A stretch of 32,000 nucleotides of DNA from Acidothermus cellulolyticus 11B (GCF_000015025.1 NC_008578.1:2220001-2252000), one strand, 5' to 3'. Numbered from the stretch's first letter, positions 8,850 to 31,015 are shown. Numbers and translations: made by a program. Notes: generated by a model from the sequence alone, not told the origin.

Positions 8850-9077
8850 TCCGCCTCCTCGCCGCGTCGCACCACCAGGTACGACGTCGCAACCATGCTC
8901 ACACCGGGCGGAAAGCGTGGCACCGTCAGCGGTCCCGCCCGGGCACCGGCGGATTCCGGCCACCGACACCCGCGCGGACCGCGGCCTACGCCGTCCACCT
9001 TACGAGGGCAGCCCGTGTTGATCGGTGGCGTACGAGCAACGGGACCAACCCATCGCCGTCCGTCACAGGGGACCGCC

Positions 9078-9231
9078 GGCACCGGGCGTCGGCACCGGGC
9101 GGCGAATGGCGCAGGGCCGGGTGGCGCAGGGCCGACCGCTGGCGCCGGGTGGCGAATGGCGCAGGGCCGGGTGGCGGCACCGGGCGGCGTCGTACGTCGC
9201 GGGGCCGGGCGTCGGCACCGGGCGGCGTCGT
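9078..9231. repeat. G-rich direct-repeat cluster in the fbiB / CaCA divergent intergenic region
   Basis: The 11-mer ggcaccgggcg occurs four times, starting at 9078, 9091, 9176 and 9214. The 26-mer ggcgaatggcgcagggccgggtggcg occurs at 9101-9126 and 9151-9176. The 23-mer ccgggcgtcggcaccgggcggcg occurs at 9082-9104 and 9205-9227. Confidence 0.85.
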
Positions 9232-9262
9232 CGACAGCTTGGACGCTGGCTACGATCTGCAG

Positions 9263-10554: not shown

Positions 10555-10630
10555 TGGAGCCGCCTCGGGGATTCGAACCCCGGACCTACGCATTACGAGT
10601 GCGTTGCTCTGCCGGCTGAGCTAAGGCGGC
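10555..10630 (-). tRNA. tRNA-Thr (anticodon CGU), CCA encoded
   Basis: The reverse complement reads GCCGCCTTAGCTCAGCCGGCAGAGCAACGCACTCGTAATGCGTAGGTCCGGGGTTCGAATCCCCGAGGCGGCTCCA. It has a 7-bp acceptor stem, a D arm GCTC/GAGC, an anticodon stem ACGCA/TGCGT with loop CTCGTAA, and a T arm CCGGG-GTTCGAATC-CCCGA/G. Confidence 0.92.
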
Positions 10631-10673
10631 GGACGCTCAGCAGTGTAACGGGGTCACGGCCGGAGCGACCGGG

Positions 10674-10694
10674 CTGGCCGGATCAGCCGGCCAG
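10674..10694 (-). terminator. Stem-loop downstream of the PSP1 gene (possible intrinsic terminator, no U tract)
   Basis: CTGGCCGG (10674-10681) pairs with CCGGCCAG (10687-10694) around a 5-nt loop, 19 nt downstream of the PSP1 stop codon. Confidence 0.35.
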
Positions 10695-10712
10695 GCGGCG
10701 GGCCCTGCGCGA

Positions 10713-11552
10713 TCACTCCTGCGGCTCGCGGCGGCCGTACCGCTCCTCGTAGCTGCGGCGCGAACCGCACACGCTCGCCTTCGGACACACGCACCGTTCT
10801 CCAGTCGCGGTGAGCTTCACGACCACGTTTCCGGCCGGGACGTTGTAGCCGACGAGCACCCCGTCGCCGTCCGGTGTGGAGACCCGGCTCCCGATCCGCG
10901 GGAGATCCGCCTTGAATTCGGCGTACAACGGATGCTCGTATTTCAGGCAGCACATGAGCCGTCCGCAGGCACCGGAAATCCGCAGCGGATTCGCCGGCAA
11001 ATCCTGGTCGCGTGCCATGCGGACCGAGACCGGCTCAAAGTCCTTGAGAAAAGTCGAGCAACACGTGTCCCGGCCGCATGGGCCGATCGCCGTCTGCACA
11101 CGAGCCTCGTCGCGGGCGCGCAATTGCCGCAGCTCCACACGTGCGTCCAATTCCGCCGAGAGAGCGCGGACCAACGCCCGGAAATCCACCCGGTGCGGCG
11201 CGCTGAAATAGAACAGGAACGTATTGTCGGCGTCCAGAAAATCAACCCCGACCAGCTTCATCGGCAGGCTGTGTTCGCGGATCAACCGGCGGGCGACCAC
11301 CCGGGCGTGCGCCCGTCGCCCGCGGTTCCGCTCGTCACGGGCAAGATCGGCGTCCGTGGCAAACCCGGCGCAGACCGGCAGACCCTCGATCTCCTCGGAC
11401 ACGTACGTCGGGGGCCAGACGCACTCGGCAACCTCGTTGCCCGCCGTTGTCGGGTACAGCACCTTGTCGCCGACCTTCGGGGCGTACGGCCCGGGGTCAA
11501 GGTAATACAGCCTCCCGTATCGGTTGAAGCTGACGGCCATCATCATGCCCAC
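10713..11552 (-). CDS. PSP1 C-terminal domain protein (RicT/YaaT-like)
   Basis: The N-terminus is AVSFNRYGRLYYLDPG..., followed by GPCGRDTCCSTFL and CGRLMCCLKYE cysteine motifs typical of PSP1/RicT. Start candidates are GTG 11552 and ATG 11546/11543/11540. Confidence 0.8.
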   Translation of the reverse strand: MGMMMAVSFNRYGRLYYLDPGPYAPKVGDKVLYPTTAGNEVAECVWPPTYVSEEIEGLPVCAGFATDADLARDERNRGRRAHARVVARRLIREHSLPMKLVGVDFLDADNTFLFYFSAPHRVDFRALVRALSAELDARVELRQLRARDEARVQTAIGPCGRDTCCSTFLKDFEPVSVRMARDQDLPANPLRISGACGRLMCCLKYEHPLYAEFKADLPRIGSRVSTPDGDGVLVGYNVPAGNVVVKLTATGERCVCPKASVCGSRRSYEERYGRREPQE

Positions 11553-11655
11553 GTCTCGACCCTAGACCGCCCGCAACGACCGACGCGGCCTGTCTGGGCG
11601 AGCGCTCCGGCGGCCGCCGGGTCAGGCAGCGACGGAGCGAGGGGCCGGGCCAGGC

Positions 11656-11694
11656 CACGACGGAGCGGGGGCCGGTCACCTCCGGCGGCGTACC
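11656..11694. repeat. Left copy of the 39-nt imperfect direct repeat flanking the island
   Basis: The sequence cacgacggagcgggggccggtcacctccggcggcgtacc matches 20220-20258 at 34 of 39 positions, and the first 16 nt are identical. A partial extra copy, cgacggagcgaggggccgg, lies at 11630-11648. Confidence 0.75.
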
Positions 11695-11920
11695 TTCTCT
11701 GTCCACATGCCTGCGGTGCGGTAGTAACGGCATTACGGAAGATCGGGAGCGTAGCGAAGGGGGTGCAGCTCCTGCGATGACCGAGCGCGCCGCTGGCGCG
11801 GCGACGAAGCACTGGTGATCACGGCATCGTCATCGTCCATCAGGAACCGCGGGTGTGCTCGTCGAGACACCTCGGCTTTTGAGCTAAGGACACGCGATTG
11901 CGAAATATACGTGGCTCACG

Positions 11921-13723
11921 CTACCCGAGAAACCCCGGAATGTCGTCGTGCCCGTTGAGCACGGCTCGATCGAGGCCACGATTGAACGCCTCACAGGAGG
12001 TCTCGGGCACCAGCAGACAGTGGTGACACGCCCCTGGAGCGGAACCACTTCCGCGAGGTCCGGGCGCATCCTCTCCGCACACCGGGTCCGTGGCGCACCA
12101 TGACGCTGCGTCGACCGCAGCTTCGAGGATGTCGCTAAGCTGGCCCGGTGTGCCCAACTCGACTAGGCCACCGAGGGTGCCGTGCAGGTCTCCGGAAGCG
12201 GTATAAACGAGAAACCCAGTGCGCTCGTCCACCGCGAATATCCGTTCCCGAAGTGATGGAAGCGGGTATCCTGCGTGCGGCGCGGCGGCCCGCATCACAA
12301 GATGGGCTAACGTGTGAGCAAGCAGCCACCTCAACCGCTGCGATTCAGGTCCTGGGGGTGCGGCCCGCGCAGCGGCCGCCAAGCGGCTGTCACCGGCCAC
12401 GCGACCCGCCCACCTTGCCACTGCGACTGGCTCAAGGAGAAGCAGTATGCCCTCGCCGAAAACCTGGTATCCCGGCAACCAGTCGTCTGGCGAGTCCTTA
12501 GCGAAATCCTTTGGACGCGGCTTTCCCCAGAGCTGCGCGTAGCCTATCTCCGGGTCCGGCGCTATTGGCTCGACACGGCAGAATCCCACACAAACCCGCG
12601 TCTCGCGCAGCCTCGGAACCAGACTGACCGCCGCAAGGCAACGGCCGAGGCGGCTGTGCTGGAATTTGCCAATATCCTGTGGTTCGACAATAAGGTCCGG
12701 CAGCCTTGCCGTAATCCGTCGTGGATGGTCAGATGACAACAGCGCATTTAATTCTCGAGTACGCAATTCTTGGACGTGTCGAGGTACACTGACCCGACCA
12801 CTCTGTATAGCCTTGAGATGGCGTGTCACCTCAGCAGCATCGGTATGGATGCCCAAGCGTTCGGCAGTCTCCACGATCTTCTCGATGACCTCAGTCCTAC
12901 GAGTTAGTCGACTCAACGTCCGCAGCGTTGCATTCTCCGTCAGAGCGTGGAGTAGAGCCGGGTTGTCTGCGTCGGCCAGCGGTATGGTGAGACTTGACAG
13001 TTGCCATGCATAGTACGCAGCCGTCGACGTTCGTTCCAGCGGGCGAGCACAATGTGTACACGTCTCCGGCTCGGAGTGTGGCAGCCATGGGCGGGCGCCG
13101 GTGCACCTGAAGGTGGTATTTGGATCGAACTGCGCGCTTCGGCTGCAACTTTCGCAATTTAGATACGGACGATCAGCTACATCGGACACACGGTAGCGCA
13201 CGTCCGGAGCGCGACAGGATGAGCCGGGTAGAGCGTGCAGCCAGCCGACCCAGTCGATGTCGTCGAGATGACCAGCTGGGCAAGCGAGTACCAGCGCAGT
13301 CTGGAATGTCGGCCACGAGCGTCGTTTAGAGCTCGGCGGCGTACACGCGTTGCACCGTCCTGGGCTAGCATCCGCAGGACTGCGGTAAATCAGCCGAAAG
13401 CACTTAGGATTCGAACATGCTTCGACAAGCGGAAAGCGCGCCGCGGGCAGTAGCCAATCGCGATCTTTCTTTGGGTTACTACCGGACGGCCACGGCATGA
13501 CGAAGCGCGCAACGCCCGTTGCCGCCTGCAGGTTCGTGTCATTGATGGTCAACTCATCAAGCACGGGGACAGATCCAGAAGGGCGCTTCGGTAACGACTT
13601 CAGCCACGTCGCTGGCGCACAGACCACCGCGCTGACCCGGTCGCGGGTCAGCAGCAGCGCGCCGGGACCAAACGGGGCGATGACATGCGCCCGCCGGAGA
13701 GGCGTCACAGAGCGACTCACCAT
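11921..13723 (-). CDS. DUF1998 domain protein, DrmB-like
   Basis: 600 aa. The N-terminus is LRRAHVIAPFGPGALLL. The N-terminal half carries Cys clusters (C103/C108/C124/C127; C190/C193/C207; C222/C225). The C-terminal block reads LLAHTLAHLVMR...SLRERIF...LVYTASGDLHGTLGGLVELG...WCATDPVC...CHHCLLVPETSCEAFNRGLDR. The start overlaps the upstream stop (ATGGTGA). Confidence 0.8.
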   Translation of the reverse strand: MVSRSVTPLRRAHVIAPFGPGALLLTRDRVSAVVCAPATWLKSLPKRPSGSVPVLDELTINDTNLQAATGVARFVMPWPSGSNPKKDRDWLLPAARFPLVEACSNPKCFRLIYRSPADASPGRCNACTPPSSKRRSWPTFQTALVLACPAGHLDDIDWVGWLHALPGSSCRAPDVRYRVSDVADRPYLNCESCSRSAQFDPNTTFRCTGARPWLPHSEPETCTHCARPLERTSTAAYYAWQLSSLTIPLADADNPALLHALTENATLRTLSRLTRRTEVIEKIVETAERLGIHTDAAEVTRHLKAIQSGRVSVPRHVQELRTRELNALLSSDHPRRITARLPDLIVEPQDIGKFQHSRLGRCLAAVSLVPRLRETRVCVGFCRVEPIAPDPEIGYAQLWGKPRPKDFAKDSPDDWLPGYQVFGEGILLLLEPVAVARWAGRVAGDSRLAAAARAAPPGPESQRLRWLLAHTLAHLVMRAAAPHAGYPLPSLRERIFAVDERTGFLVYTASGDLHGTLGGLVELGTPGQLSDILEAAVDAASWCATDPVCGEDAPGPRGSGSAPGACHHCLLVPETSCEAFNRGLDRAVLNGHDDIPGFLG

Positions 13724-16700
13724 GCATCCTCCTCATCTACGTCGGTAGCAGAGTCCTGTCGGTGCATCACGCTCCTCCTTGCGCAGGGATCAGGCGGTAG
13801 CCAGTCCTCATCGATGCTTACCGCCGCGTAGGCATCGACGTTGCGCAGTGAGGTCAGCACCGCCCAACTGGCTTTATCAGGCGGCGCAGGATCCTCCAGC
13901 GCACGCAGAAACTGCGCGCCGTGGCGTCCGGCTGTACCCCAAGGCATTTTTTCGTTGATCGCGGCCCGTAGCTCGGTCACTGCGGCTCGTGTGAGGGCTT
14001 CAATACGCTCACCGACAGCTTTACCGACAAGAGCCCCTGCCCGGTCACGGATCGCGGCCGCGGCGGCCTCGACGAGCGGAACATCCGCTTCCACGACGTC
14101 TTTAAAGTCAGTTGAACGGATCTGACGTACAACCGCGGCTATCGTACTGCGCAAGCCCCTTGCTAGCGCAGCGTCCGTAAAAGGTGTAACACTCGCAGGC
14201 TCCACTGACCCGTAGAGTCGCTCGTGCACCGAGGTAAACCGCTCATAGTGGCTCATGTCACGGCCTGTCAACGGGTTGAGAAGCACAACCACGAGACCGG
14301 GCGCATTTGTCGGATCACGGCCGACTCGGCCCGCAACCTGGATGTACTGGGCTGAGGTCTTAGGCTGCCGCACGATCGTCAATAGTCCGAGTCGGTCAAT
14401 ATCAAGGCCGACCTCAATGACGCTGGTCGCCAACGCCAGATCAACCGTACCGCGCTCCCAACGGCGACGTGCAAGGCGTTCCAGTGCCTCGCTCGCCGCG
14501 TTACTCGACGCGCTGGTAAGCTCAATGTCCTCTAGCGTACGAATCGCGAGCCTTTGCTTACCCTTCTTAACCGGCCCAGTACGGACCCCTGTCGCCGACA
14601 CCAATCGCCACGCGTAACCACGAAGGTCGGTAGCAAGAAGTGCCTTCGCGTGACCGAGGTCCCGCAAGGAGCCAAAAAACACGAGATTCGTCCAGTAGGG
14701 GTCTACGCTAGCTCCGCACTGTTCAATCGCCGCAGCTGCATGCGCGAGGCTGGCGATTACGCGCATCTGTGTCCGAGGGAAACTGTTCACACCCGTGGCA
14801 CAGACGCCGACGAACTTGCGCGGCGGTATACGGTCGTCGCGTCGGGTAAAGAAGCGGTCGTCGATACTCAGGCCCGGCGGTGGGACTAGCCGGACCTGAT
14901 CGGCTGGGCAATTGTAGAGCGCTTCCGCCTGTCGGGCGTACGCCCGGGTTGTTGCCGTCGCGGCGACGACGTGAGGCGACTCACCCTTATCGTGACAGCA
15001 GAGTGCGTGCAGAGCGGACTCATAGAGAGCCACTAAGCTACCCAGCGGCCCGGAAATCAGATGCAGCTCGTCTTGGATGATCAGAGTGGGTGAAGGTCTT
15101 ACCCGCCGGCCCTGTCGATCGATGCCAAAGATGACACGGGCGTCTTCTTTCCACGCCAGCTGGGCGAACTTGTCCACGGTCGCAATTAAAAACGCCGGTG
15201 GTTTTTTGTAGATATCTTCATCGACTTCGTAGACCGGCAGACCACGACCGCCACTGCGAGCAAGGTGAAAGGCACAAACAGGATTCTCGCACGATGCCCG
15301 CACCCGGTAACTGTTCTCCAAGTGCTGCACGTCATACCCCAACACCCGTCCCTCGACGACACGCCCGATCTCGGTGGCGCACGCTGGACACCGGGAAAGT
15401 AGAAACGGCCTGGCATCACGACGAGCTTTTGCATCCTTCACAGTTTGCTCAAGCGCCTTAAGCGCATCTTCACGCCGGTTTGGGGTGCTGGCTTGGCCAA
15501 GCCAGACACCAATCGAAAACCGATCGTTGCCAAGTAGTTCACGGTTCTTTAACCGCAACGTCTCCAGCGCGCATATGAGCGACGCAGCTCGTTGTAGCTG
15601 CTGAGCCGTAAGTAGGCGCAGCGTGTAGCGCATGAGGACGGTGGTGCCGCCTGCATTCGATTGGGCGCGGCGTCGGTACAACATTGCAAAGGCTGCAAGT
15701 CCCAAGTACGCTTCAGTCTTCCCACCGCCGGTAGGCATCCATATGACGTCCACAACACCACGGCGCGGATGCCGGGGATTAATCACCGGGCAGAGGTTCG
15801 CGAGTAAGAATGCCAACTGGAACGGTCGCCATTTAGCAGGACCCGTTGTCGGCTCGGCGCCGTCAACCTGAACCTGGTCACCGACCAAGGTGACATGTCG
15901 CGTAGCCGCCGCATAGCTGCGGCGCTGCTGCGCCATTGCCACCGAAGCCCACTCTAGGCACTGACGTGCTATGCTATTGGTTTTGACGGTTTCCCATCCT
16001 TCTTCAATGGCGTCGGCAAAGGAACGACATACCTGCACATGCTTCTGTGCAGTCGCTCCTGCCGTGCCGGTGAGACGTGCAGCCTGCTCCTCGATTGAGG
16101 TGATCCAATCACGGTAGCTGCGAATCAGCCGCTCGACGGTGGCGACAGCCGATACTTCCCAGCGTCCAAGCCCATCCATGTCGACGGCGAGTGGGCCGTC
16201 CTCATCTTCGATGTCGGGTGTCGTCCCAGAGACTGCCGCAACCGGCAAGGCTTCCGTGCGCACAATGTCCTCACCTTTGACTCGGTGCACTACGGCGTCA
16301 ACTCCGTGTCCGACGGCACGAATGGGTGAATCCCTATATAAGAGCCGCAGGCTGGCGGCCTCCGCCGTTGTATCCGAGTCTCGTTCCGGGTAATCACACA
16401 GGAGACCTTCTGGGACGGCAACTGCAAGCTGTGAAGCGAATAGCACACGCTCAGCCAAGGCTGCTCCATTCCGCGGGGTGCGGTTTGCCAGATAACAGGT
16501 GACAACTCGCTTTCCGTCGGAAGATTTCCTTGCGCGGACACCTATTTCGAGATTTAGCGGATCGACGTCGATCAGCGTCTTTCCCCAAAATTCTGGCTGC
16601 TCGACCTGTAGCGAGAACGGTACCGTTCGGTCGATGGGTACGCGGTGCCAGGCTGTGCCCGGCTGACCGTTGGCTGTTGTATACGGGAATGGTTCGTAGC

Positions 16701-17205
16701 GCGCACCTGTCACTCGCAAGGTCAGTAACGGCGTCGTGTCACGTATTACGAAGGACACACCGAGTGACGACGGACGACCAGGGCGGTCCCTCGGCAAATT
16801 TTCGAGTACAACATCATCCTCGGCCATTCCGTGGCCGGACTCGCCTCCTCGTGTCGCGAATGGTTCGGGAATGGAATTTCCTGGATCCGTATCTAGATCT
16901 TCATCGGCTTCGTCTGGTCTAACCGGCGCCTGCTCAGCGTCGAGTATGTGTTCTTCGCTAAGGTCAAGCTCCATCGGGTACAGAACACCGATGATGTATC
17001 GGGATGTCGGCGAGGCCAAGAGGATTTCCTCGCCGTCGTCGGCAACGAAGAGTCGATCCCGACCCAACCGTCCGACCATGGAATATCCGCGCTCAATGCG
17101 CTTGGCCGTAGCCCCAGGATATATACCGGACTTGTCGACAAGCGGGCCGACCAGGTCTCGGCGGAGCGCATCGATAATCGCATCGCGGGTCTGTTCTGGT
17201 GTCAT
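13717..17205 (-). CDS. Large SF2 (DExH) helicase, DrmA-like
   Basis: 1162 aa. Motif I is MPTGGGKTEAY (15706-15738), motif II DELH (15061-15072), motif III AATAT, and motif VI QYIQVAGRVGR (14317-14349). The ~480-aa N-terminal region contains SRYIIGVLYP and an acidic stretch. A CxxC...Cx4C insertion lies between motifs I and II. The ATG overlaps the upstream stop (ATGA). Confidence 0.85.
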   Translation of the reverse strand: MTPEQTRDAIIDALRRDLVGPLVDKSGIYPGATAKRIERGYSMVGRLGRDRLFVADDGEEILLASPTSRYIIGVLYPMELDLSEEHILDAEQAPVRPDEADEDLDTDPGNSIPEPFATRGGESGHGMAEDDVVLENLPRDRPGRPSSLGVSFVIRDTTPLLTLRVTGARYEPFPYTTANGQPGTAWHRVPIDRTVPFSLQVEQPEFWGKTLIDVDPLNLEIGVRARKSSDGKRVVTCYLANRTPRNGAALAERVLFASQLAVAVPEGLLCDYPERDSDTTAEAASLRLLYRDSPIRAVGHGVDAVVHRVKGEDIVRTEALPVAAVSGTTPDIEDEDGPLAVDMDGLGRWEVSAVATVERLIRSYRDWITSIEEQAARLTGTAGATAQKHVQVCRSFADAIEEGWETVKTNSIARQCLEWASVAMAQQRRSYAAATRHVTLVGDQVQVDGAEPTTGPAKWRPFQLAFLLANLCPVINPRHPRRGVVDVIWMPTGGGKTEAYLGLAAFAMLYRRRAQSNAGGTTVLMRYTLRLLTAQQLQRAASLICALETLRLKNRELLGNDRFSIGVWLGQASTPNRREDALKALEQTVKDAKARRDARPFLLSRCPACATEIGRVVEGRVLGYDVQHLENSYRVRASCENPVCAFHLARSGGRGLPVYEVDEDIYKKPPAFLIATVDKFAQLAWKEDARVIFGIDRQGRRVRPSPTLIIQDELHLISGPLGSLVALYESALHALCCHDKGESPHVVAATATTRAYARQAEALYNCPADQVRLVPPPGLSIDDRFFTRRDDRIPPRKFVGVCATGVNSFPRTQMRVIASLAHAAAAIEQCGASVDPYWTNLVFFGSLRDLGHAKALLATDLRGYAWRLVSATGVRTGPVKKGKQRLAIRTLEDIELTSASSNAASEALERLARRRWERGTVDLALATSVIEVGLDIDRLGLLTIVRQPKTSAQYIQVAGRVGRDPTNAPGLVVVLLNPLTGRDMSHYERFTSVHERLYGSVEPASVTPFTDAALARGLRSTIAAVVRQIRSTDFKDVVEADVPLVEAAAAAIRDRAGALVGKAVGERIEALTRAAVTELRAAINEKMPWGTAGRHGAQFLRALEDPAPPDKASWAVLTSLRNVDAYAAVSIDEDWLPPDPCARRSVMHRQDSATDVDEEDAW

Positions 17206-18806
17206 GCGCCCACCTTCCTCGACAACGTGGTCACACGGCAGCCATGATCGTCAAACAAAGCGCCGAGGCAGCTCAGAGGAACCGGAACCGGCTCTTCAAT
17301 GCGAGCTGTCACCATAGCGAGTAGGAGCGTACCGAGGTCGCTAACGTCCAGTACGGCCCATCCGTTGCGATCTACATCGCTCGCCCAGCGTCGATCTTTC
17401 AAGCACTCGAGCAAATCGCGCCGAATCTCCTCGCCGGCTTGCTGGCGGGCGATGCGAATCCTGACCAGGTCGTCGAAGTGTGCGGCCAGATGCTCAACTC
17501 CAATGACCTTTGTCAGGGCTTCAAACGCCGTAGAACGCCGTGGAGCGATGTAAGACTCGTCGAGGGGACTGCGAAGCAACGTACGCGCGTACTCGCCATC
17601 GCCGAGTATGTCGGTCAGCTGGCGCCACAGTGTGTCGTGACCTTCGCGGTCAAGCGCGCGACGCAGAGCTTTTCTGATTTGGTCCGGGTATCCAGATACC
17701 CGTTCGATCTTCTTAAGCGTCCAGCCAGAACGACTCAACCACTCATTGGCGCGCACGACAATCTGCATATGGGGAGCCGTAGCGCAGCGCACAGCGAGCA
17801 CGTCGCCACGTTCGATTGCTTGGACTGGGCAGGGTAATAAGATAACCGCGCCGGCCTCATCGTCTACGCTTACGACATACGGCCGTGGACCAAGTTCGTT
17901 ATGGAAGAAGATCGCGTGTCCGGACCTGAGTTGGATCTCGACCGCCATCGTCTCGCCGACGCTCGAGGGAGCCTGTAGGCGTGAGATTCGACGCACCGAA
18001 GAAGGGGTTTCTACCGCGCAAGCCCAGTCGCGCGAGCTCTCTATGGGCTGTGCTGGACCGTCGTCGCACACGGATAGTTGCGGATGCGCCTCCGAGGGGA
18101 GCAACCAGATATCATCGGCTGGTAGCGTCGGCGCATCGACCGTCAGCACAACGCGGACCTTTGTCGCTGCCGGCGCTGTCAGGAGCCACCCGTATTCCCG
18201 GAGGATAACATCCTGGCCGCGGAACGGCGAAGCAAACGCAATCGCCGGATGGCCAAGGATAATGCAGACGCGTCGTATGTCGGACCGGGTTCGCAGGTCA
18301 GACGCTATAGCGACGTCGACACAGTCAAACTCTTCGGCGGCAAGCCAGTCCTGTATGGGATCCATCCACTCCGGACGAGGCACTGCTAAGACCGCCTCGG
18401 GAGTGCCATCTAGTGCTGCACCATACTCCGACAGAAGCTCCCCGAGCGCCGATGCCACCGGTGATTGAGTAGCAAACAGTTCGCGCAAAGCCTCCGTAAG
18501 CGATGCTGCACTTTGCCACAGTGTGTGGCCGGGCCTGTCGACAAGAAATTGCTCCAAGTCTTTAATTAGGAACCCAATGCCAGTAAGCTCGTGTGCTGGC
18601 CACAAAGGGGTGCACGTGAGCACCTTTCGCGCATCGAACACTCCGCGAAGCACTTTACCAGCTATTGTGGACGTCTCGACATGGGGTCGAAATGCCTTTG
18701 CCACTTGAAGCACGCGCGCGAGTTCCGGCCAAGAGACGCGGGTCACAACGACAGCCGGTGACTCCGCGCAATGCCACATCTCGAATAATGCCTGTAGCTC
18801 GCTCAC
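17202..18806 (-). CDS. Hypothetical protein B of the island operon (no recognisable domain)
   Basis: The ORF is open over 17202..18851 (TTG at 18851). I prefer GTG 18804-18806 because it overlaps the upstream TGA (GTGA coupling); ATG 18779 is another option. The lower-GC codon usage includes tandem TTA-TTA at 17835-17840. I could find no Walker A, HxK (PLD), HNH or methyltransferase motif. Confidence 0.6.
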   Translation of the reverse strand: MSELQALFEMWHCAESPAVVVTRVSWPELARVLQVAKAFRPHVETSTIAGKVLRGVFDARKVLTCTPLWPAHELTGIGFLIKDLEQFLVDRPGHTLWQSAASLTEALRELFATQSPVASALGELLSEYGAALDGTPEAVLAVPRPEWMDPIQDWLAAEEFDCVDVAIASDLRTRSDIRRVCIILGHPAIAFASPFRGQDVILREYGWLLTAPAATKVRVVLTVDAPTLPADDIWLLPSEAHPQLSVCDDGPAQPIESSRDWACAVETPSSVRRISRLQAPSSVGETMAVEIQLRSGHAIFFHNELGPRPYVVSVDDEAGAVILLPCPVQAIERGDVLAVRCATAPHMQIVVRANEWLSRSGWTLKKIERVSGYPDQIRKALRRALDREGHDTLWRQLTDILGDGEYARTLLRSPLDESYIAPRRSTAFEALTKVIGVEHLAAHFDDLVRIRIARQQAGEEIRRDLLECLKDRRWASDVDRNGWAVLDVSDLGTLLLAMVTARIEEPVPVPLSCLGALFDDHGCRVTTLSRKVGA

Positions 18807-19861
18807 CACATATCTTCTTCGTCGCAGGTGGTTTCTGGCTCTATCCGGCAAAAGATTTCAAGTCCCGCGGTTGGCTTCAGCAATGACACGAGTGTTGGTG
18901 GCAGATTTCTTGGCGCAGGCCAACCAGAGACAGATATCACACTGGCGACTCTGGATGCTGCTGGAGAGCGCCTCGACAACAGCAGGATTATTGGCACGTT
19001 TGGCCAAACGCTCCGTGAGCTGCGGGCCCATGCCGCTGAACCAGTGAAAAGAATTAATCGTGGCTGCAGCTCGCGCGCCCAGGGTATTCTCTCCGGCTGC
19101 GGGATAGTCCGCTCCGTCAGGACGGGGTGGCGGAACCACTCCTCTAGCCTGCCGCTGTGCATACGGCCTCGCACATGTAACACGGGGCTCGCCTTCGCAA
19201 GTAGGTCAACGTCCTTAAGAAATGTAGACCATTCGCCGACAACAACCACTGGATGGGCGGCCGACGCGGATAGTCGCTGACCGGCAATTTCCGGGTTACA
19301 TTTCAGCGCCTCCGCTACTTCCCTCCGCAATTCGTCGGGAAGGCGCCATCGGGATCGCTCTGGGAATCCCTCCGGCAGCCGGTGCACACTGCCCCGATCC
19401 CCGCGGAAATGTACGCCCGCGAACATCAGTTCCTCGTCACTCATACGATCCAGCGAAGCATCGATAAATTCGCCGCTTAACCAACCGGTCACCCTCGCCC
19501 CAACTTCAAGGCGCGTATGTGGGCAATCCCGACATAATCGGTTGACGAGTGTGGCACCGAGCGTGACAACAACTCCGGCAAGTTGCGGGGTTGGAACCGT
19601 TATGATCACCCGCAAGTTCCGGGCCGATGCGGTCTCAAGACAGGTAAGTGCCTGAGCCAAGCAATGCAGGTGGCGCAGACCTGCGGGTAGTACCTCCGCT
19701 TCTGCGCGGGCTCGTCGTTGCAACACGCAGATCACCTTGTATGCCAAGCGCACACGGAGATGGCTTTCGGACGTACCATACGCGCTACGGCGGACGTGCG
19801 CACGCCTTTCGGCGGAAAATGGTGGAAGAGAGCCGATCACCGTAGCTTCGAATCGACGCAC
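18803..19861 (-). CDS. Hypothetical protein A of the island operon (no recognisable domain; start uncertain)
   Basis: 352-codon ORF from GTG 19861, with no convincing SD at any candidate start. It contains four in-frame TTA codons (19535, 19478, 19178, 19055) and ends ...CDEEDMW. It is the first gene of the coupled four-gene operon. Confidence 0.55.
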   Translation of the reverse strand: MRRFEATVIGSLPPFSAERRAHVRRSAYGTSESHLRVRLAYKVICVLQRRARAEAEVLPAGLRHLHCLAQALTCLETASARNLRVIITVPTPQLAGVVVTLGATLVNRLCRDCPHTRLEVGARVTGWLSGEFIDASLDRMSDEELMFAGVHFRGDRGSVHRLPEGFPERSRWRLPDELRREVAEALKCNPEIAGQRLSASAAHPVVVVGEWSTFLKDVDLLAKASPVLHVRGRMHSGRLEEWFRHPVLTERTIPQPERIPWARELQPRLILFTGSAAWARSSRSVWPNVPIILLLSRRSPAASRVASVISVSGWPAPRNLPPTLVSLLKPTAGLEIFCRIEPETTCDEEDMW

Positions 19862-20219
19862 GTAGCGGAGTGCCTGCTAACCCAGGAACGCTGGCCTGGA
19901 CAGGACGATTACCGCGGGACGACTCCACGCTGGAAATCTGGTCAGACGGATCACCAGAGCGTAAGCGCTAACCCGGTGGAGGATGGCACTCGGATACCTA
20001 GACGCCTCCAGCAGCCGACATCAATGCGTCGCAACGACCCATATCGCCGGAGCGTGATCGTCGAGCAGGGCAGGGTGAAGAACGCGAAGTGTATCTACAC
20101 ACGTGGCACCACATACACACCAAATCCGTGGCGAAGGTGCCATGATTCTCAACGCAGCGAAGACCGATGCCACTGCCCGAAATGTCACGAGTGGTAGCAG
20201 TTGGGTAGAGGACCGGCAA

Positions 20220-20258
20220 CACGACGGAGCGGGGGTCCGTCACCCACGCCGGCGTACC
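20220..20258. repeat. Right copy of the 39-nt imperfect direct repeat flanking the island
   Basis: The sequence cacgacggagcgggggtccgtcacccacgccggcgtacc lies 11 nt upstream of the PPOX ATG and matches 11656-11694 at 34 of 39 positions. Confidence 0.75.
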
Positions 20259-20268
20259 CTGAGAACCG

Positions 20269-20727
20269 ATGACCACGACCCGAGACGAGCCGCACGGCAA
20301 GCTGCCCGCCGATCACATCGCTTTCCTTTCCGGCCGTCGCCTCGGGCACCTCGTCACTCTTCGGCCCAACGGATGGCCGCACATCTCCAACGTCCTCTAT
20401 CACGTGGACGCCGACCAGCCGATCATCCGGATCTCGGTTACCGATGATCGGGTCAAGGTGCGCAACCTTCGACAGGACCCTCGCGCGGTGCTGCACGTCG
20501 ACGGCCCGGACGGCTGGACCTGGCTTGCTGCCGAGGGAATTGCGGAACTCTCGCCGGTTGCCGCGCAGCCCGATGACCCGACCGTCGACGAACTCGCCGA
20601 GATCTACCGCTCGATCCGCGGCGAGGATCACCCGGATTGGTCGGAATTCCGGACAGCGATGGTGGCCGAGAAACGGCTCGTCCTGCGCATCCACATTCGT
20701 CGCACATACGGCCTGCTTCGTCGGTGA
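20269..20727 (+). CDS. PPOX-class (pyridoxamine 5'-phosphate oxidase-like) probable F420-dependent enzyme
   Basis: 152 aa with ATG 20269. The sequence LSGRRLGHLVTLRPNGWPHISNVLYHVD...RISVTDDRVKVRNLRRDPRAVLHVDG...W resembles the Rv1155-type split-barrel family. GC content matches the host. Confidence 0.75.
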   Translation: MTTTRDEPHGKLPADHIAFLSGRRLGHLVTLRPNGWPHISNVLYHVDADQPIIRISVTDDRVKVRNLRQDPRAVLHVDGPDGWTWLAAEGIAELSPVAAQPDDPTVDELAEIYRSIRGEDHPDWSEFRTAMVAEKRLVLRIHIRRTYGLLRR

Positions 20728-20760
20728 GCACAGCCCGGCCCGGCACGAGTGGGAGCCGGC

Positions 20761-22089
20761 CTACTCGGCGGCCTGCCTCACGTTGCCAGCCGCCAGGCCG
20801 CTGATCTGAATGGCCAACGCCTCGAACGCCAGCAGCGGATTGGCGTTCGCCGCCAGGGCCGCCCGGCACTCCATGATCGCGTCGATCCGGTGCAGGGTCA
20901 TTTCGGGAGTCGACCGGGCGGCAACGTCGCGGATTCGATCGAGGACGTCGGCGTTCATCACCCACGGACGGGATCGCGCGGCAACCCCGGGGACCGCCCC
21001 GGCAGCCCCGGCCCCGGAGACCCCTTCGGCAACCCCGGGGACCGCCTCGGCAACCCCGGACACCGTCTCCGCGGCCACTCCCAGTTGAACCAGCAGCACG
21101 TCGCGGAAGAACCCGGCCAAATCCATGAGGGTTCGGTCCAGCGCATCCCGCTGGGCCCGGCTGGCCCGGGATTTTTGCCGCGCCTCGAGCTCGCGGAGTG
21201 CAGCGGAACTACCTCGCAGCACGCCCGACGCGACCCGCCGCCGGTCGCCGGACGCCGTCCCACCCTCGCCGAGCGCTTCCCGCAGGGCAGCGGTCTCGGC
21301 CTGATCGAGCGCTTCCGTCTCCGTGGTCGCTTCGCTCGTCGCGGCGTCAACCAGGTCGGCGGCGACGCGCAAGCACCCGCCGAGATCGATCGGACCCGCC
21401 AACCGGGCCGCCGCCTCCAACACCGCCGATCGCCGGGCCCGCGCCCGCGCGTCGGTCGCCAGCCGCAGCGCGCGGCCGATATGCGCACCCGCCGCCCGGG
21501 CCGCCAGTTCCGCGGTGTCGGCGGCGACGCCGTTCCGCCGAATCAGCAGCTCCGCGACCGCGGCAACCGGCGGAGTGCGAAGGGTCACCAGCCGGCAGCG
21601 GGACCGGATCGTCGGCACCAGATCGTGCGGCGCGGGAACGCACAGCAACCACACCGTCCGGGGTGCCGGCTCTTCGATTGCCTTCAAGAGCACGTTCGCC
21701 GCGCCCTCGGTCAACCGGTCGGCGTCCTCGAGCACGACCACCTGCCAGCGGGCATTCGCCGGGGCCAACGCGGCGCGGGCGACCAGCTCACGCGCCTCGG
21801 CAACCCCAAGGGAGAGACCCTGCGGCCGGACGATCGTCACATCCGGGTGGGTTCCGGCGAGAACCGTCCGGCAGTCGGTGCACTCGCCGCAACCCGGCTC
21901 AGCCGCCCGGCACTGCAGGGCAGCCGCGAACGCCCGAGCGGCCACGCTCCGTCCCGAACCCGGCGGGCCGACGAACAGCCACGCATGCGTCATCCCGGCC
22001 CCCGACGCGCGGGCCGCCGCCGCGACCGCACGCAGCGTCTCGACCACCTGCTGCTGCCCGATAATTTCCCCGAAAACACCGCGGCTCAC
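20761..22089 (-). CDS. holB: DNA polymerase III subunit delta'
   Basis: The N-terminus reads VFGEIIGQQQVVETLR...HAWLFVGPPGSGRSVAARAFAAALQC...GCGECTDC (zinc module), followed by VVVLEDADRLTEGAANVLLKAIEEP and SRC. The GTG start overlaps the tmk stop (GTGA). Confidence 0.85.
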   Translation of the reverse strand: MSRGVFGEIIGQQQVVETLRAVAAAARASGAGMTHAWLFVGPPGSGRSVAARAFAAALQCRAAEPGCGECTDCRTVLAGTHPDVTIVRPQGLSLGVAEARELVARAALAPANARWQVVVLEDADRLTEGAANVLLKAIEEPAPRTVWLLCVPAPHDLVPTIRSRCRLVTLRTPPVAAVAELLIRRNGVAADTAELAARAAGAHIGRALRLATDARARARRSAVLEAAARLAGPIDLGGCLRVAADLVDAATSEATTETEALDQAETAALREALGEGGTASGDRRRVASGVLRGSSAALRELEARQKSRASRAQRDALDRTLMDLAGFFRDVLLVQLGVAAETVSGVAEAVPGVAEGVSGAGAAGAVPGVAARSRPWVMNADVLDRIRDVAARSTPEMTLHRIDAIMECRAALAANANPLLAFEALAIQISGLAAGNVRQAAE

Positions 22090-24182
22090 GGCGTCCCTCC
22101 GGCGGTTGACGGCAGCGGGTCGCGCGGAGCTCGTTTCGGGGGAAACGGCAAGACGGGCAGGATCCGCTGAACGACGAGCCGATGAATGTCCGCAGCGGAC
22201 AACCGGGCGTCGATGACAAGGTACCGTTCCGGATCGGCTTCGGCACGCTGCCGAAACACGTTCCGCACCCGCTCGTGAAAAGCCGCGTCCTCAGCTTGCA
22301 GACGATCGGGTGCGCGGTCCCGCCGTCCCGTGCGGGCCAATCCCTCATCCGGCGGAACATCCAACAGCACGGTGAGATCCGGGCGCAGACCAGACGTCGC
22401 GAACCGCGACAGCTGCTCGACGTCGCGCGGCGATAAATCCCGCCCGCCGCCCTGATAGGCAAGGGATGAATCGACGTACCGGTCGCTGATGACAATCGCA
22501 CCGCGCGCCAACGCCGGCCGAATCACCTTCGCGACGTGCTCCGCCCGATCGGCGGCGTACAGCAACGCTTCGGCGCGCGGGGAGGGAGCCGGTTCCCGGG
22601 GGTCGAGGAGAATCTCGCGAAGCCGATGACCGAGCGGCGTCCCGCCGGGTTCGCGGCTCACCACGACCTCGTATCCGCGATCGGCAAGATAGCGGGCCAG
22701 CAATTCCACCTGTGTCGATTTGCCCGCCCCTTCGCCGCCTTCGAACGCGACGAAGAAACCGGTGGCGACACCCCGCCCGGTCAACGGGTGCCAGCCGAAA
22801 ACGGCATCGATGAAATCACGCCACAACGGCACGTCGCGGTCATCCATCTGCCGATAGGCGACGAGGCCGACGACCAGTGCACCAATGCCTGCGAAGAGCA
22901 GCGTCATCGCCGAGCCGTTGACCGGGAACGTGACGTCGCCGATGCGCAGAACGTGCGTGCCGATGCCGCCAGAGAGAAACGGTCCCGCCGCAACCATCAG
23001 AAGAATGTCCACCTGCATGAGCGACTGCAACGTCGCCCAGGTGCGGCCGCGTGTGGCGTCCTCAACTTCCAAGCCGAGCAAGGTGTACCCGGTGACCCAG
23101 GCAATGCCGGCGCAACAGCCGAGCAGCAGCGCACCGAAAACAACAAGCACCAGATTATGGACCAGCGCGGTCGCCGCGAGAATCACTCCCGCTGCGGCGA
23201 TGCTCAACCCGAAGAGCCGACGCCGGGAGAATCCGCGCAGCACCCGCGGACCGGTGAACATGCCAATGGCCAACCCGAGAAAAACCGCCCCGAACAACAT
23301 GCCGTACCCGGCTCCCCCGCCGCCGAGATCCCGCACGTAAATCGTGGCGACACCGATGACGACCCCGGCCGCGCCGAACGCACCGAGCATTCCGACCGCA
23401 AGGCCGCGCACCACCGGTGTTTGGCCCATGAACCGCCACCCGTCGACGATTGACCGGAACACCGACGGATGCGTGACGACGCCGTCGGCGGTCCGCCGCC
23501 GTCCCCCGTGCGTGGAAATTTCCCGCAGGCTGAAAATCGTCGCCGCCGAGACGAGGAACGTCACCGCATCGAAATACAGGGCGAGGTCGACACGATTCGT
23601 CGTGAACAACGGAATCCAACGGGCAAGGACGCCGGTGAGCAGGCTGAGCAGTGCGAAAACCGCCGCGGCGATCGGGGCCGTGCCATAGGCGCCGAGGAGA
23701 TTCAGCGAGCCGGCGTCGCCCATGCGCTCACGAGGCACCAGATTCGGGACCGTCGCTTCCTTCGCCGGAATCCAGAACAGGCTCAACGTCTCAATGAGGA
23801 AAGTCGCGACAAAGAGCCACCAGAGCGTGTGCACGATCGGGATCGACGCGTAGAGCGCGAACCGTCCGATGTCGGCGATCACCATGGTGAGCCGGCGATC
23901 CAAGCGGTCAGCCAATGCTCCGGCCAACGGCGCGAGGGTCACCGCGGGCAACAACCGGACGAAGACCACCGTCCCGACCGAGAAATTCTGCGCCAGATAC
24001 GTGTGCCCGCTGGCCAAGCTGGCGGCCAGCGCCGTCTGGCCGAGAAAGCCCAGCCAGTCGCCGAAACTCGACACCGCGAGCGCGGTCCAGAGTTTGCGGA
24101 ACGACGGAATCCGCAGCACGCCGCGCAAATCCGACGTACCGACGGCATTCACCGCAGACCCGAGACGAGCCGTGTTGTCCAC
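22086..24182 (-). CDS. tmk: MFS-like membrane domain fused to thymidylate kinase
   Basis: 698 aa. The ~470-aa N-terminal part is polytopic and MFS-like. The C-terminal part, FFVAFEGGEGAGKSTQVELLARYL...SREPGGTPLG...DRYVDSSLAYQG, is a dTMP kinase. The same fusion and the topA-tmk-holB order are known in Streptomyces. Confidence 0.85.
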   Translation of the reverse strand: MDNTARLGSAVNAVGTSDLRGVLRIPSFRKLWTALAVSSFGDWLGFLGQTALAASLASGHTYLAQNFSVGTVVFVRLLPAVTLAPLAGALADRLDRRLTMVIADIGRFALYASIPIVHTLWWLFVATFLIETLSLFWIPAKEATVPNLVPRERMGDAGSLNLLGAYGTAPIAAAVFALLSLLTGVLARWIPLFTTNRVDLALYFDAVTFLVSAATIFSLREISTHGGRRRTADGVVTHPSVFRSIVDGWRFMGQTPVVRGLAVGMLGAFGAAGVVIGVATIYVRDLGGGGAGYGMLFGAVFLGLAIGMFTGPRVLRGFSRRRLFGLSIAAAGVILAATALVHNLVLVVFGALLLGCCAGIAWVTGYTLLGLEVEDATRGRTWATLQSLMQVDILLMVAAGPFLSGGIGTHVLRIGDVTFPVNGSAMTLLFAGIGALVVGLVAYRQMDDRDVPLWRDFIDAVFGWHPLTGRGVATGFFVAFEGGEGAGKSTQVELLARYLADRGYEVVVSREPGGTPLGHRLREILLDPREPAPSPRAEALLYAADRAEHVAKVIRPALARGAIVISDRYVDSSLAYQGGGRDLSPRDVEQLSRFATSGLRPDLTVLLDVPPDEGLARTGRRDRAPDRLQAEDAAFHERVRNVFRQRAEADPERYLVIDARLSAADIHRLVVQRILPVLPFPPKRAPRDPLPSTAGGTP

Positions 24183-29586: not shown

Positions 29587-29754
29587 GGTGACATCGCTCA
29601 CTCGGCGACGCCTTCGGCTGCAGGGTTCCCGCGAGACCCGTCCGGCAGTCGGGTGACATCGCTCACTCGGCGACGCCTTCGGCTGCAGGGTTCCCGCGAG
29701 ACCCGTCCGGCAGTCGGGTGACATCGCTCACTCGGCGACGCCTTCGGCTGCAGG
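29587..29754. repeat. Perfect 65-bp tandem repeat, 2.6 copies, overlapping the 3' end of the anti-sigma kinase gene
   Basis: Copies start at 29587, 29652 and 29717. The two full copies are identical, and the third matches for 38 nt. Each copy contains tcactcggcgacgccttcggctgcagg, the reverse complement of the gene's last 8 codons plus its stop. Confidence 0.9.
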
Positions 29755-30940: not shown

Positions 30941-31015
30941 TCACCCACGCCGGCGGGACGGCCGGGTCGATCCCGGGCGCCGGCGGGACGGCCGCGTCGA
31001 TCCCGGTCACCCACG
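30941..31015. repeat. Nested repeat: 28-nt tandem pair (30-nt period) flanked by a 9-nt direct repeat
   Basis: The 9-mer tcacccacg occurs at 30941-30949 and 31007-31015. The 28-mer gccggcgggacggccgNgtcgatcccgg occurs at 30949-30976 and 30979-31006, with one mismatch. Confidence 0.85.

What the first reader, a model, noticed from the sequence alone, without database searches (positions are those of the whole stretch)
11656..20258. 39-nt imperfect direct repeats bracket the whole island: an att-like footprint without an integrase
Seen:
- 11656-11694 and 20220-20258 match at 34 of 39 positions in direct orientation, and the first 16 nt (cacgacggagcggggg) are identical
- a third, partial copy sits at 11630-11648
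- GC content and codon usage change between the two repeats
- the repeats lie in the promoter regions of PSP1 (minus strand) and the PPOX gene (plus strand)
- no integrase, transposase or recombinase ORF lies between them
- the island is ~1 kb from tRNA-Thr but is not inserted in it

Established: holB and a PSP1/RicT-type gene are close neighbours in many Firmicutes and Actinobacteria, and the topA-tmk-holB order matches Streptomyces.

Inference: an 8.5-kb cargo-only element was inserted site-specifically, or captured by recombination, into the PSP1-PPOX intergenic region. The target was duplicated, and the mobility functions have been lost or act in trans.
Basis: partly seen in the sequence, partly recalled or inferred. 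Interest (0 to 1): 0.65.

Follow-up and report, generated by a model that had tools for sequence, protein, structure and literature searches.

The report
Repeat-flanked defence island without an integrase
The two 39-base repeats are real junction repeats of an 8.5-kb foreign island carrying a rare DISARM-like anti-phage gene set, inserted at a recurrently used spot where close relatives have a single repeat copy and no island, and the enzyme that inserted it is unknown.

Summary
11656-11694 and 20220-20258 match at 34/39, with the first 16 identical, far beyond shuffles.

Eight contigs of the same species (Acidothermus cellulolyticus, flanks 97-99.7% identical) have ricT/PSP1 and PPOX 185 bp apart. 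They carry one copy of the sequence, and in one of the two empty-site alleles it is identical to the right-hand copy.

A third allele, in a conspecific MAG, holds an unrelated ~9.9-kb sugar-catabolism island in the same segment. It also has no recombinase.

The window island (11695-20219, low GC and GC3) carries four genes: X, Y, a DrmA-like helicase and DrmB. This rare DISARM-related module has no methylase or nuclease and is conserved as a unit in distant actinobacteria.

The "third copy" is one unit of a pre-existing 28-nt tandem array. The left copy is not a simple duplicate of the target. It lies in a 104-nt patch about 15% diverged from every empty allele, next to 900 nt of perfect identity.

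Most likely these are attL/attR-type junctions at an insertion hotspot, made by a recombinase acting in trans or since lost. Import by short-homology recombination is the main rival. No recombinase, remnant or circular junction was found.

The parts
10555..10630 (-). tRNA-Thr (CGU). It is a nearby landmark and not the insertion target.
   Evidence: ARAGORN; Rfam tRNA
10713..11552 (-). ricT/PSP1 gene, the left flanking core gene (gene callers start it at 11546). It is 100% identical at the DNA level in all empty-site strains.
   Evidence: Pfam PSP1 and NCBIfam RicT_YaaT; 0 mismatches over 10650-11549
11591..11694 (.). Patch of the spacer about 15% diverged from every empty allele and one 28-nt unit shorter. 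It contains the left repeat.
11616..11675 (+). 28-nt tandem array (2.2 units).
   Evidence: TRF; the same array with 3 units at empty sites
11656..11694 (+). Left junction repeat (attL-like): a 16-nt core identical to the right copy, then a 23-nt arm with 5 mismatches.
11695..20219 (.). Island-specific DNA (8,525 bp), absent from empty-site strains, with low GC and GC3.
   Evidence: blastn homology breaks at 11678 and 20222
11921..13723 (-). DrmB-family protein (600 aa).
   Evidence: NCBIfam NF038324, 310 bits, above the cutoff of 240; PADLOC DrmB 6.5e-55
13717..17205 (-). DrmA-like SF2 helicase (1162 aa).
   Evidence: PADLOC DrmA 1.5e-177; NCBIfam DISARM_DrmAS 770 bits, below the cutoff of 950; 63% identical to the M. 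parmense homologue
17202..18806 (-). Y, a 534-aa protein of unknown function sitting at the DrmE position. The family has no name in any library searched.
   Evidence: no Pfam, PADLOC, NCBIfam, PHROGs or PDB hit; 25 clusters at 90% identity; 445 representatives by profile; one distant member hits DrmE_C at 22.5 bits, below the cutoff of 27; AF2 pLDDT 81 with no fold match, TM at most 0.24
18803..19861 (-). X, protein of unknown function. The real start is probably 19726 (307 aa).
   Evidence: only 8 homologue clusters, 308-311 aa; no domain hit; AF2 model unusable, pLDDT 41
20220..20258 (+). Right junction repeat (attR-like). Positions 20222-20258 are identical to the single copy at empty sites of the attB-1 type.
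20269..20727 (+). F420-dependent PPOX-class oxidoreductase, the right flanking gene. A TANNNT-like hexamer TACCCT (20255-20260) lies 8 nt before its ATG.
   Evidence: Pfam PNPOx_N and TIGR03618; sequence; the promoter reading is inference
20761..22089 (-). holB (DNA polymerase III delta'). In most related genera it lies directly upstream of PSP1.
   Evidence: precomputed Pfam DNA_pol3_delta2; synteny

Best explanation
The two 39-mers are the junction repeats (attL/attR type) of an 8.5-kb horizontally acquired island. Its only cargo is a four-gene DISARM-related defence module: X, Y, a DrmA-like helicase and DrmB.

The island sits in the 185-bp spacer between ricT/PSP1 and a PPOX gene of Acidothermus cellulolyticus. 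The insertion point is the last unit plus the 23-nt tail of a 28-nt tandem array, 10 nt before the PPOX start codon. This segment is a recurrent insertion hotspot in the species.

I infer that insertion was a conservative, site-specific exchange between a chromosomal site (attB) and a similar but non-identical site on the incoming DNA (attP). The crossover would fall in the 14-16-nt identical core CGACGGAGCGGGGG. That leaves the native arm next to PPOX and the element's arm (5 mismatches) next to ricT. The recombinase is not on the island, so it acted in trans or was encoded on a part since lost. Today the island is an immobilised or cis-mobilisable cargo element.

- **Shown:** the insertion, the single-copy empty site, reuse of the site by a second island, and the absence of a recombinase.
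- **Inferred:** the type of recombination, the position of the crossover, and the defence function.
For: 1. **Empty sites.** Eight conspecific contigs from separate datasets have PSP1 and PPOX 185 bp apart with one copy. They are L092, L094, L089, L082-L084, L120 and L124. Their flanks are 97-99.7% identical to the window. Homology breaks at 11678 and 20222.
2. **Significance.** The repeat is far beyond chance, and beyond the 13-16-nt background around homologous modules elsewhere.
3. **Hybrid structure.** The right copy is identical to the attB-1 empty allele. The left copy shares the 16-nt core and then differs at 5 of 23 positions.
4. **Second island.** The MAG GCA_023512095.1 (L115) has an unrelated ~9.9-kb island between the same genes: LacI, a sugar ABC transporter, dehydrogenases and an amidohydrolase, GC 0.53-0.60, no recombinase. 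Its junctions lie inside the same 39-nt segment. Its amidohydrolase has no homologue above 64% identity elsewhere.
5. **Local divergence at the site.** Two empty-site lineages differ at only 9 positions in 2.55 kb, and 8 of them fall within 96 nt at the att segment. This is what repeated exchange at the site would leave.
6. **Foreign composition.**
7. **The module travels as a unit.** It is found in Mycobacterium, Blastococcus and Cellulomonas at 35-63% identity, in some cases near serine or tyrosine recombinases.
Against: - No recombinase or remnant was found in either island. None is seen among the called genes of the surrounding ~30 kb.
- The second island's flanking repeat is weak: ungapped score 12, reached by 8 of 300 shuffles. 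Its breakpoints are offset from the window's by 6 nt on the left and about 19 nt on the right. A single common crossover point therefore needs an extra indel or an unseen attB allele.
- The divergent patch extends about 65 nt to the left of the proposed crossover. Simple site-specific exchange does not explain this.
- The inverted repeat GACGGA-N7-TCCGTC in attB does not fold better than shuffles.
- No circular attP junction was found in JGI metagenomes. No similar att sequence was found in phages, plasmids or IMG/VR.
Confidence: 0.5

Rival explanations
1. Import by homologous or short-homology recombination. The island arrived on DNA from a more divergent relative that already carried it at the same locus. 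One end recombined in or next to ricT, where homology is long. The other end joined at the 14-37-nt stretch of similarity beginning CGACGGAGCGGGGG. This could be homology-facilitated illegitimate recombination, or Campbell-type integration of a circle carrying a short homologous segment. No dedicated recombinase is needed, and the repeats are donor and recipient versions of the same spacer sequence.
For: - There is a sharp step from 0 mismatches in 900 nt (ricT) to about 15% divergence plus a 28-nt unit loss in 11591-11694, directly abutting the island. This looks like a recombination tract carrying a donor allele.
- The right flank shows no such patch.
- Neither island has a recombinase.
- The breakpoints of the two islands are not identical.
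- HFIR is a documented route for foreign DNA (PMC3240628).
Against: - It does not explain how the repeat arose in the first place in the donor.
- Two unrelated islands within the same 40 nt need a further reason, such as a fragile or permissive site.
- No donor is known. The closest Y homologues are only 53% identical and sit in other contexts.
- A 14-16-nt identity is short for RecA-dependent exchange.
Confidence: 0.3
2. The island is ancestral, and the empty sites are deletions produced by recombination between the two repeats.
For: Direct repeats of 39 nt can mediate precise deletion. Presence or absence is polymorphic among very close strains.
Against: - The island's GC and GC3 are foreign.
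- All empty alleles from at least two lineages share a three-unit array. This array cannot be produced from the window's two-unit left flank by repeat-by-repeat deletion.
- Another strain has a different island at the site.
- Related genera lack the module here.
Confidence: 0.08
3. The repeats are pre-existing elements of the spacer, such as tandem-array units or regulatory sites for the divergent ricT and PPOX promoters. The island simply landed between two of them, so they are not insertion footprints.
For: - The first ~18 nt of the repeat belong to a 28-nt tandem array that exists without the island.
- TANNNT-like hexamers end both copies.
- The genome has many intergenic tandem arrays.
Against: - The 19-23-nt tail (TCACC...GGCGTACC) occurs once at empty sites and twice in the window.
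- No Rfam family or promoter-like match was found.
Confidence: 0.07

Closest known systems
Cis-mobilisable elements (CIMEs) and immobilised genomic islands
   Same: Cargo DNA bounded by attL/attR-type direct repeats, with no integration or transfer genes of its own (definition in PMC5704250). Close relatives carry an empty site with one copy, and another element occupies the same site in another strain.
   Different: CIMEs are decayed ICEs or IMEs, usually at the end of a tRNA or protein gene, and a cognate integrase-bearing element is known. Here there is no remnant of int, xis or transfer genes, no cognate element is known, and the target is an intergenic tandem array.
Gonococcal genetic island and other Xer-dependent integrated elements (IMEX)
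   Same: An island without its own integrase, flanked by one perfect and one imperfect direct repeat, and moved by a host-encoded recombinase (PMC10272882).
   Different: The repeats here are not dif-like: there is no ATAA-N6-TTAT core anywhere in the window. The locus shows no GC-skew switch, so it is not at the replication terminus.
Defence islands carried by integrase-bearing elements, flanked by 16-20-nt direct repeats (ARMADA, Druantia and similar; Bell et al. 2025, bioRxiv 10.1101/2025.09.15.676423)
   Same: A YprA/DrmA-family defence module delivered as cargo and bounded by direct repeats. That paper also describes immobilised islands.
   Different: Those elements target tRNA or tmRNA genes and retain integrases or their pseudogenes. 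This island has neither, and its repeats are longer and imperfect.
DISARM (class 2: DrmE-DrmA-DrmB-DrmC-DrmMII)
   Same: A DrmA-like helicase followed by DrmB. A ~530-aa protein immediately upstream occupies the DrmE position, and a distant member of its family weakly matches DrmE_C.
   Different: There is no methyltransferase and no PLD nuclease DrmC. An extra protein X of ~307 aa is present. DrmA scores below the NCBIfam equivalog cutoff.
Homology-facilitated illegitimate recombination
   Same: One end is anchored in long homology and the other is joined at a short similarity. No element-encoded recombinase is needed (PMC3240628).
   Different: HFIR does not by itself create flanking direct repeats. 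It also does not explain two unrelated islands within the same 40 nt.

Membership tests
Integrase-mediated integrative element (attL/attR) | Direct repeats at both junctions sharing an identical core | tested here: met
   34/39 with a 16-nt identical core; score 24 against a shuffle maximum of 13
Integrase-mediated integrative element (attL/attR) | Empty site with a single copy (attB) in close relatives | tested here: met
   Eight conspecific contigs
Integrase-mediated integrative element (attL/attR) | Element-encoded tyrosine or serine recombinase next to one att site | tested here: not met
   No such domain in the four genes or in the ORFs of the island ends
Integrase-mediated integrative element (attL/attR) | Excised circular form or attP junction | tested here: inconclusive
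   The exact attP junction is absent from JGI metagenome contigs. Read-level data were not searchable.
Cis-mobilisable element (CIME) | attL and attR retained while integration and transfer genes are absent | tested here: met
Cis-mobilisable element (CIME) | Derived from, and mobilised by, a cognate ICE or IME with the same attB specificity | not testable with these tools
   The whole genome could not be scanned. No att-like match in phages, plasmids or IMG/VR.
Xer/dif-dependent island (IMEX, GGI type) | Flanking repeats are dif-like 28-nt sites at the replication terminus | tested here: not met
   No ATAA-N6-TTAT in the window (the dif core is recalled from memory). The cumulative GC skew is monotonic.
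Transposon with target-site duplication | Short perfect duplication, terminal inverted repeats and a transposase | tested here: not met
   The repeat is 39 nt and imperfect. The inverted-repeat score between the island ends is at shuffle level, 97 of 300. There is no transposase.
Integron gene cassette | attC site with R''/R' boxes (GTTRRRY) and an intI/attI platform | tested here: not met
   The repeats contain no GTTRRRY. No integrase is seen among the neighbouring genes.
DISARM defence system | DrmA helicase and DrmB (DUF1998/MZB) core pair | tested here: met
   PADLOC and NCBIfam. DrmB is above its cutoff and DrmA is below the equivalog cutoff.
DISARM defence system | DrmC (PLD nuclease) and a methyltransferase (DrmMI or DrmMII), with DrmD or DrmE | tested here: not met
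   No methylase or PLD domain in the island. There is only a weak indirect DrmE_C link for the Y family.

The most novel reading that the evidence does not exclude
The ricT-PPOX spacer, with its 28-nt tandem units, is a dedicated chromosomal docking site. A recombinase encoded elsewhere in the genome, neither an integron integrase nor Xer acting at dif, captures and exchanges integrase-less gene cassettes there. The window holds a defence cassette and a sister strain holds a sugar-catabolism cassette. The tandem units would then be scars of earlier capture and loss cycles.
Probability: 0.12. Interest if true: 0.8.

Novelty: new variant of a known kind. Interest (0 to 1): 0.45.

Why it matters
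This locus gives a clean natural before-and-after comparison. Near-identical strains carry an empty site, a defence island or a catabolic island at the same 40 nt, and none of the islands has a recombinase. That makes it a tractable case for asking how integrase-less defence islands enter and leave actinobacterial chromosomes. It also singles out a compact four-gene DrmA/DrmB module, with no methylase or nuclease and not named in any library searched, for functional testing.

Tried and rejected
- **attP junction.** The exact reconstructed junction was not found in JGI metagenomes. The PPOX-side flank pattern recovered only the already known contig.
- **Core in viral contigs.** The core pattern was not found in IMG/VR.
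- **att sequences in phages and plasmids.** attB and attP gave only chance-level hits.
- **Y family on mobile records.** No match in plasmids, phages or IMG/VR.
- **Hairpin or cruciform.** The att copies do not fold better than shuffles, z from -0.9 to +0.8.
- **Longer homology.** Nothing significant links the island's left inner end to the PPOX 5' end beyond the 39-mer.
- **Shared arm sites.** The inner ends of the two islands share no similarity.
- **Recombinase remnants.** None in the small ORFs of the island ends.
- **RNA families.** No Rfam family at the repeats.
- **Promoters and terminators.** No consensus hits.
- **Structure of X.** The model is unusable, pLDDT 41.
- **Fold of Y.** No meaningful PDB match, and no sequence match in PDB.
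- **Repeats around homologous modules.** Only chance-level repeats in five other genomes. One possible 19/20 repeat brackets integrase plus module in Blastococcus and was not evaluated further.
- **The holB-PSP1 gap in other genera.** It holds ordinary genes and no integrases among 20 sampled ORFs, so it says nothing about mechanism.
- **Not possible.** The whole A. cellulolyticus genome could not be scanned for further copies of the core or for candidate recombinases.
Full report
**1. The observation**

They match at 34/39 in direct orientation, and the first 16 nt are identical.

The match is not chance. The best ungapped score between the two intergenic regions is 24. In 300 dinucleotide-preserving shuffles the mean was 9.3 (sd 1.0) and the maximum 13. 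The same search around homologous gene modules in four other genomes found only 13-16-nt matches.

GC drops from 0.66-0.74 to 0.58-0.62 between the repeats. GC3 of the four enclosed genes is 0.58-0.64, against 0.76-0.87 for the neighbours. tRNA-Thr(CGU) lies at 10555-10630, 1,026 nt from the left repeat.

**2. Gene content**

All four island genes are on the minus strand.

| Gene | Coordinates | Size | Evidence |
|---|---|---|---|
| X | 18803-19726/19861 | 307-352 aa | no domain hit |
| Y | 17202-18806 | 534 aa | no domain hit |
| DrmA-like helicase | 13717-17205 | 1162 aa | PADLOC 1.5e-177; NCBIfam DISARM_DrmAS 770 bits, below the cutoff of 950 |
| DrmB-family | 11921-13723 | 600 aa | NF038324, 310 bits, above the cutoff of 240 |

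X and Y hit nothing in Pfam, NCBIfam, PADLOC, PHROGs or PDB sequences. There is no methyltransferase, PLD nuclease, integrase or transposase.

The flanks are ricT/PSP1 (10713-11552, minus strand) and an F420-dependent PPOX-class gene (20269-20727, plus strand). Beyond PPOX lie holB, tmk-MFS, topA and an H+-pyrophosphatase, all on the minus strand.

**3. The organism and the empty sites**

Exact-protein look-ups place the window in Acidothermus cellulolyticus. A conspecific MAG carries that name. The window's own contig is 2,443,540 bp, which I recall as the size of the strain 11B genome.

Eight contigs from independent datasets have PSP1 and PPOX adjacent, 185 bp apart:
- two JGI metagenomes (L092, L094);
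- one ENA assembly (L089);
- four Logan assemblies (L082-L084, L120);
- the NCBI MAG GCA_019683725.1 (L124).

Their flanks are 97-99.7% identical to the window. Homology breaks at window positions 11678 and 20222.

The empty spacer reads ...[GGCCAGGCCACGACGGACCGAAGGGCCG][GGCCAGGCCACGGCGGACCGAGAGGCCA][GTCAGGCAG-CGACGGAGCGGGGGTCCG]TCACCCACGCCGGCGTACC-CTGAGAACCG-ATG(PPOX). That is three 28-nt tandem units followed by a tail.

The segment CGACGGAGCGGGGGTCCGTCACCCACGCCGGCGTACC occurs once in it, and is identical to window 20222-20258. A second empty allele (attB-2) reads CGGCGGAGCGGGGGTCCGCGACCACGCCGGCGTACC.

**4. A second island at the same place**

In the MAG GCA_023512095.1 (L081/L115) the same two genes are separated by an unrelated ~9.9-kb block. 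It encodes LacI, an oxidoreductase, a sugar ABC transporter, an epimerase, a dehydrogenase and an amidohydrolase. Its GC is 0.53-0.60 and it has no recombinase. Its amidohydrolase has no homologue above 64% identity elsewhere, so the block is accessory.

Its junctions lie inside the same 39-nt segment:
- Left: ...CGGCGGAGCGGGGGGCCCGTCACCCACGCCGG|AGCTGCAGG
- Right...GGCACGCGGAGCGTTACGGTTAAACGGTCTCA|CGACCACGCCGGCGTACC-CTGAGAG

Its flanking direct repeat is short. The ungapped score is 12, reached by 8 of 300 shuffles. A perfect 13-nt inverted repeat lies 9-21 and 20-32 nt inside its two junctions, a score reached by 1 of 300 shuffles.

Short contigs from sister samples of the empty-site contig L120 carry the same amidohydrolase. 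Empty and occupied alleles therefore seem to coexist in related samples.

**5. Fine structure that bears on mechanism**

(a) The right copy equals the native site. The left copy shares the 16-nt core and then differs at 5 of 23 positions. This is the pattern of hybrid att sites made from similar but non-identical partners. It is not the pattern of a replicative target duplication, which would start out perfect. The island is polymorphic among strains only 0.3-0.6% apart, so in-place decay of 13% is unlikely.

(b) Between the window and every empty allele there are 0 mismatches across 900 nt of ricT. Then come about 21 mismatches plus the loss of one 28-nt unit in 11591-11694. To the right of 20222 the flank shows only background divergence. 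The left patch extends about 65 nt beyond the core. Two readings fit. It may be a donor allele imported with the island. Or it may be the lineage's own older allele, with ricT later homogenised by recombination up to the heterology.

(c) Two empty lineages differ at 9 positions in 2.55 kb, and 8 of them fall within 96 nt at the att segment and the first codons of PPOX. The site is therefore a local hotspot of sequence exchange even without an island.

(d) attB contains GACGGA-N7-TCCGTC. The attB-2 allele changes one arm pair in a compensatory way. However, folding energies are no better than shuffles, so I give this little weight.

**6. What I infer**

It is shown that this is an insertion with junction repeats at a reused site.

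My preferred mechanism (about 0.5) is conservative site-specific recombination, with the crossover in CGACGGAGCGGGGG. The recombinase would be absent from the island, either acting in trans or lost. This would make the island CIME-like or immobilised.

The main rival (about 0.3) is import from a divergent relative by homologous recombination on the ricT side and a short-homology join on the PPOX side (HFIR or Campbell type). This rival explains the diverged left patch and the non-identical breakpoints of the two islands. It does not explain the origin of the repeat or the reuse of the same 40 nt.

Deletion of an ancestral island, and pre-existing regulatory repeats, are unlikely. The composition is foreign. 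The three-unit empty array cannot be derived from the window's left flank. The tail occurs only once at empty sites.

**7. The cargo elsewhere**

The X-Y-DrmA-DrmB order is conserved in several distant actinobacteria:
- Mycobacterium parmense;
- Mycobacterium sp. SM1;
- Blastococcus;
- Cellulomonas;
- metagenomic actinobacteria.

DrmA is 63% identical to the M. parmense protein.

In M. parmense the module lies in a larger island with serine recombinases and a Thoeris-type TIR gene. In Blastococcus it lies 2 kb downstream of a tyrosine integrase gene. In one metagenomic contig (L126) it sits alone between a 5-FTHF cyclo-ligase gene and a penicillin amidase gene, without repeats.

The word-based search found the Y family in only 25 clusters among 5.8 billion proteins. 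A profile search found 445 representatives, all about 500-545 aa. One distant member weakly matches Pfam DrmE_C (22.5 bits, cutoff 27), and Y occupies the DrmE position.

The AF2 model of Y is confident (pLDDT 81) but has no PDB fold match. A recombinase fold for Y is therefore not supported. X could not be modelled.

Bell et al. (bioRxiv 10.1101/2025.09.15.676423) mention "many uncharacterized DISARM-like classes" in the DrmA clade. They also describe defence islands bounded by 16-20-nt repeats with integrases at tRNA genes, including immobilised ones. That is the closest published frame.

**8. Comparison with known kinds**

- The element behaves like a CIME or immobilised island (PMC5704250), but it lacks any remnant of its supposed parent.
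- It resembles the gonococcal genetic island in having no integrase and one imperfect repeat (PMC10272882), but its repeats are not dif-like and the locus is not at a skew switch.
- It is not a transposon, because the repeat is long and imperfect and there are no inverted ends or transposase.
- It is not an integron cassette.
- It is not a canonical DISARM system, because the methylase and DrmC are missing.

**9. Limits**

- The complete genome could not be scanned, so genome-wide frequency of the core and candidate recombinases remain untested.
- Within the 32-kb window the core occurs only at the three known places. In about 1.9 Mb of related loci it occurs only as two unrelated coding matches.
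- All occupied contigs are essentially one strain (99.98-100% identical). Diversity within the island is therefore uninformative.

**10. Verdict**

It needs correction on "target duplication" and on the third copy. The mechanism is unresolved between trans or lost site-specific recombination and short-homology import.

This is a new variant of a known kind, of moderate interest.

Noticed in passing
window 17202-19861 with 11921-17205; L109, L111, L112, L113, L126: X-Y-DrmA-DrmB is a conserved four-gene DISARM-related module with no methyltransferase or nuclease. X and Y match no library family. One distant Y-family member weakly hits DrmE_C. The Y family has 445 representatives by profile search and matched no Pfam or PADLOC family above its cutoff.
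   Followed up: partly
L115 1484-11408 (MAG GCA_023512095.1): An unrelated sugar-catabolism island of about 9.9 kb, without a recombinase, lies at the same ricT-PPOX site. It has a perfect 13-nt inverted repeat (GCTCCGCGTGCCA / TGGCACGCGGAGC) just inside both junctions.
   Followed up: partly
window 10650-11549: ricT/PSP1 is 100% identical at the DNA level in all conspecific contigs, although these differ by 2-4% on either side. This suggests a recent recombinational sweep of the gene.
   Followed up: partly
window 29587-29781: There is a perfect 65-nt tandem repeat (2.6 copies plus a degenerate one) downstream of the H+-pyrophosphatase gene. Empty-site strains L120 and L124 appear to have one copy fewer.
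   Followed up: no
window 9077-9233: There is a complex GC-rich tandem array (periods 13-38 nt) between fbiB and the Na/Ca exchanger gene. It varies between strains (duplicated blast pieces for L092 and L094). Together with the arrays at 4092-4160 and 30948-31006, this suggests that the genome is rich in VNTR-like intergenic repeats.
   Followed up: no
window 20979-21080 (inside holB): In-frame 21/27-nt repeats lie inside holB. The holB length varies between strains (440, 442 and 463 aa), and most differences between the window and its closest empty-site relative cluster here.
   Followed up: no
window 20749-22170 (+): The 473-aa plus-strand ORF is a shadow of holB on the minus strand (20761-22089). 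Its tblastn hits in relatives fall on the strand opposite to topA, tmk and PSP1.
   Followed up: yes
L001-L080, between holB and PSP1: The holB-PSP1 gap ranges from 45 nt to 8.3 kb across 73 related genomes. It holds ordinary genes (subtilase, LMW phosphatase, fructosamine kinase, GH92) and no integrases in the sample. PPOX is present there only in Acidothermus and one uncultured relative (L001).
   Followed up: partly
L126 7602-15281 (ENA ERZ23497145): The same four-gene module sits alone between a 5-FTHF cyclo-ligase gene and a convergent penicillin amidase gene. There is no integrase and no flanking repeat, and its GC (0.68-0.72) is lower than that of its flanks (0.74-0.81).
   Followed up: partly
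L112 5039 and 17482 (Blastococcus): A 19/20-nt direct repeat brackets a tyrosine integrase gene plus the four-gene module (12.4 kb). These may be the att sites of an intact carrier element, or a chance match in GC-rich DNA.
   Followed up: no
window 22086-24182: Thymidylate kinase is fused to an MFS transporter-like domain (698 aa). The fusion is conserved in the relatives.
   Followed up: no
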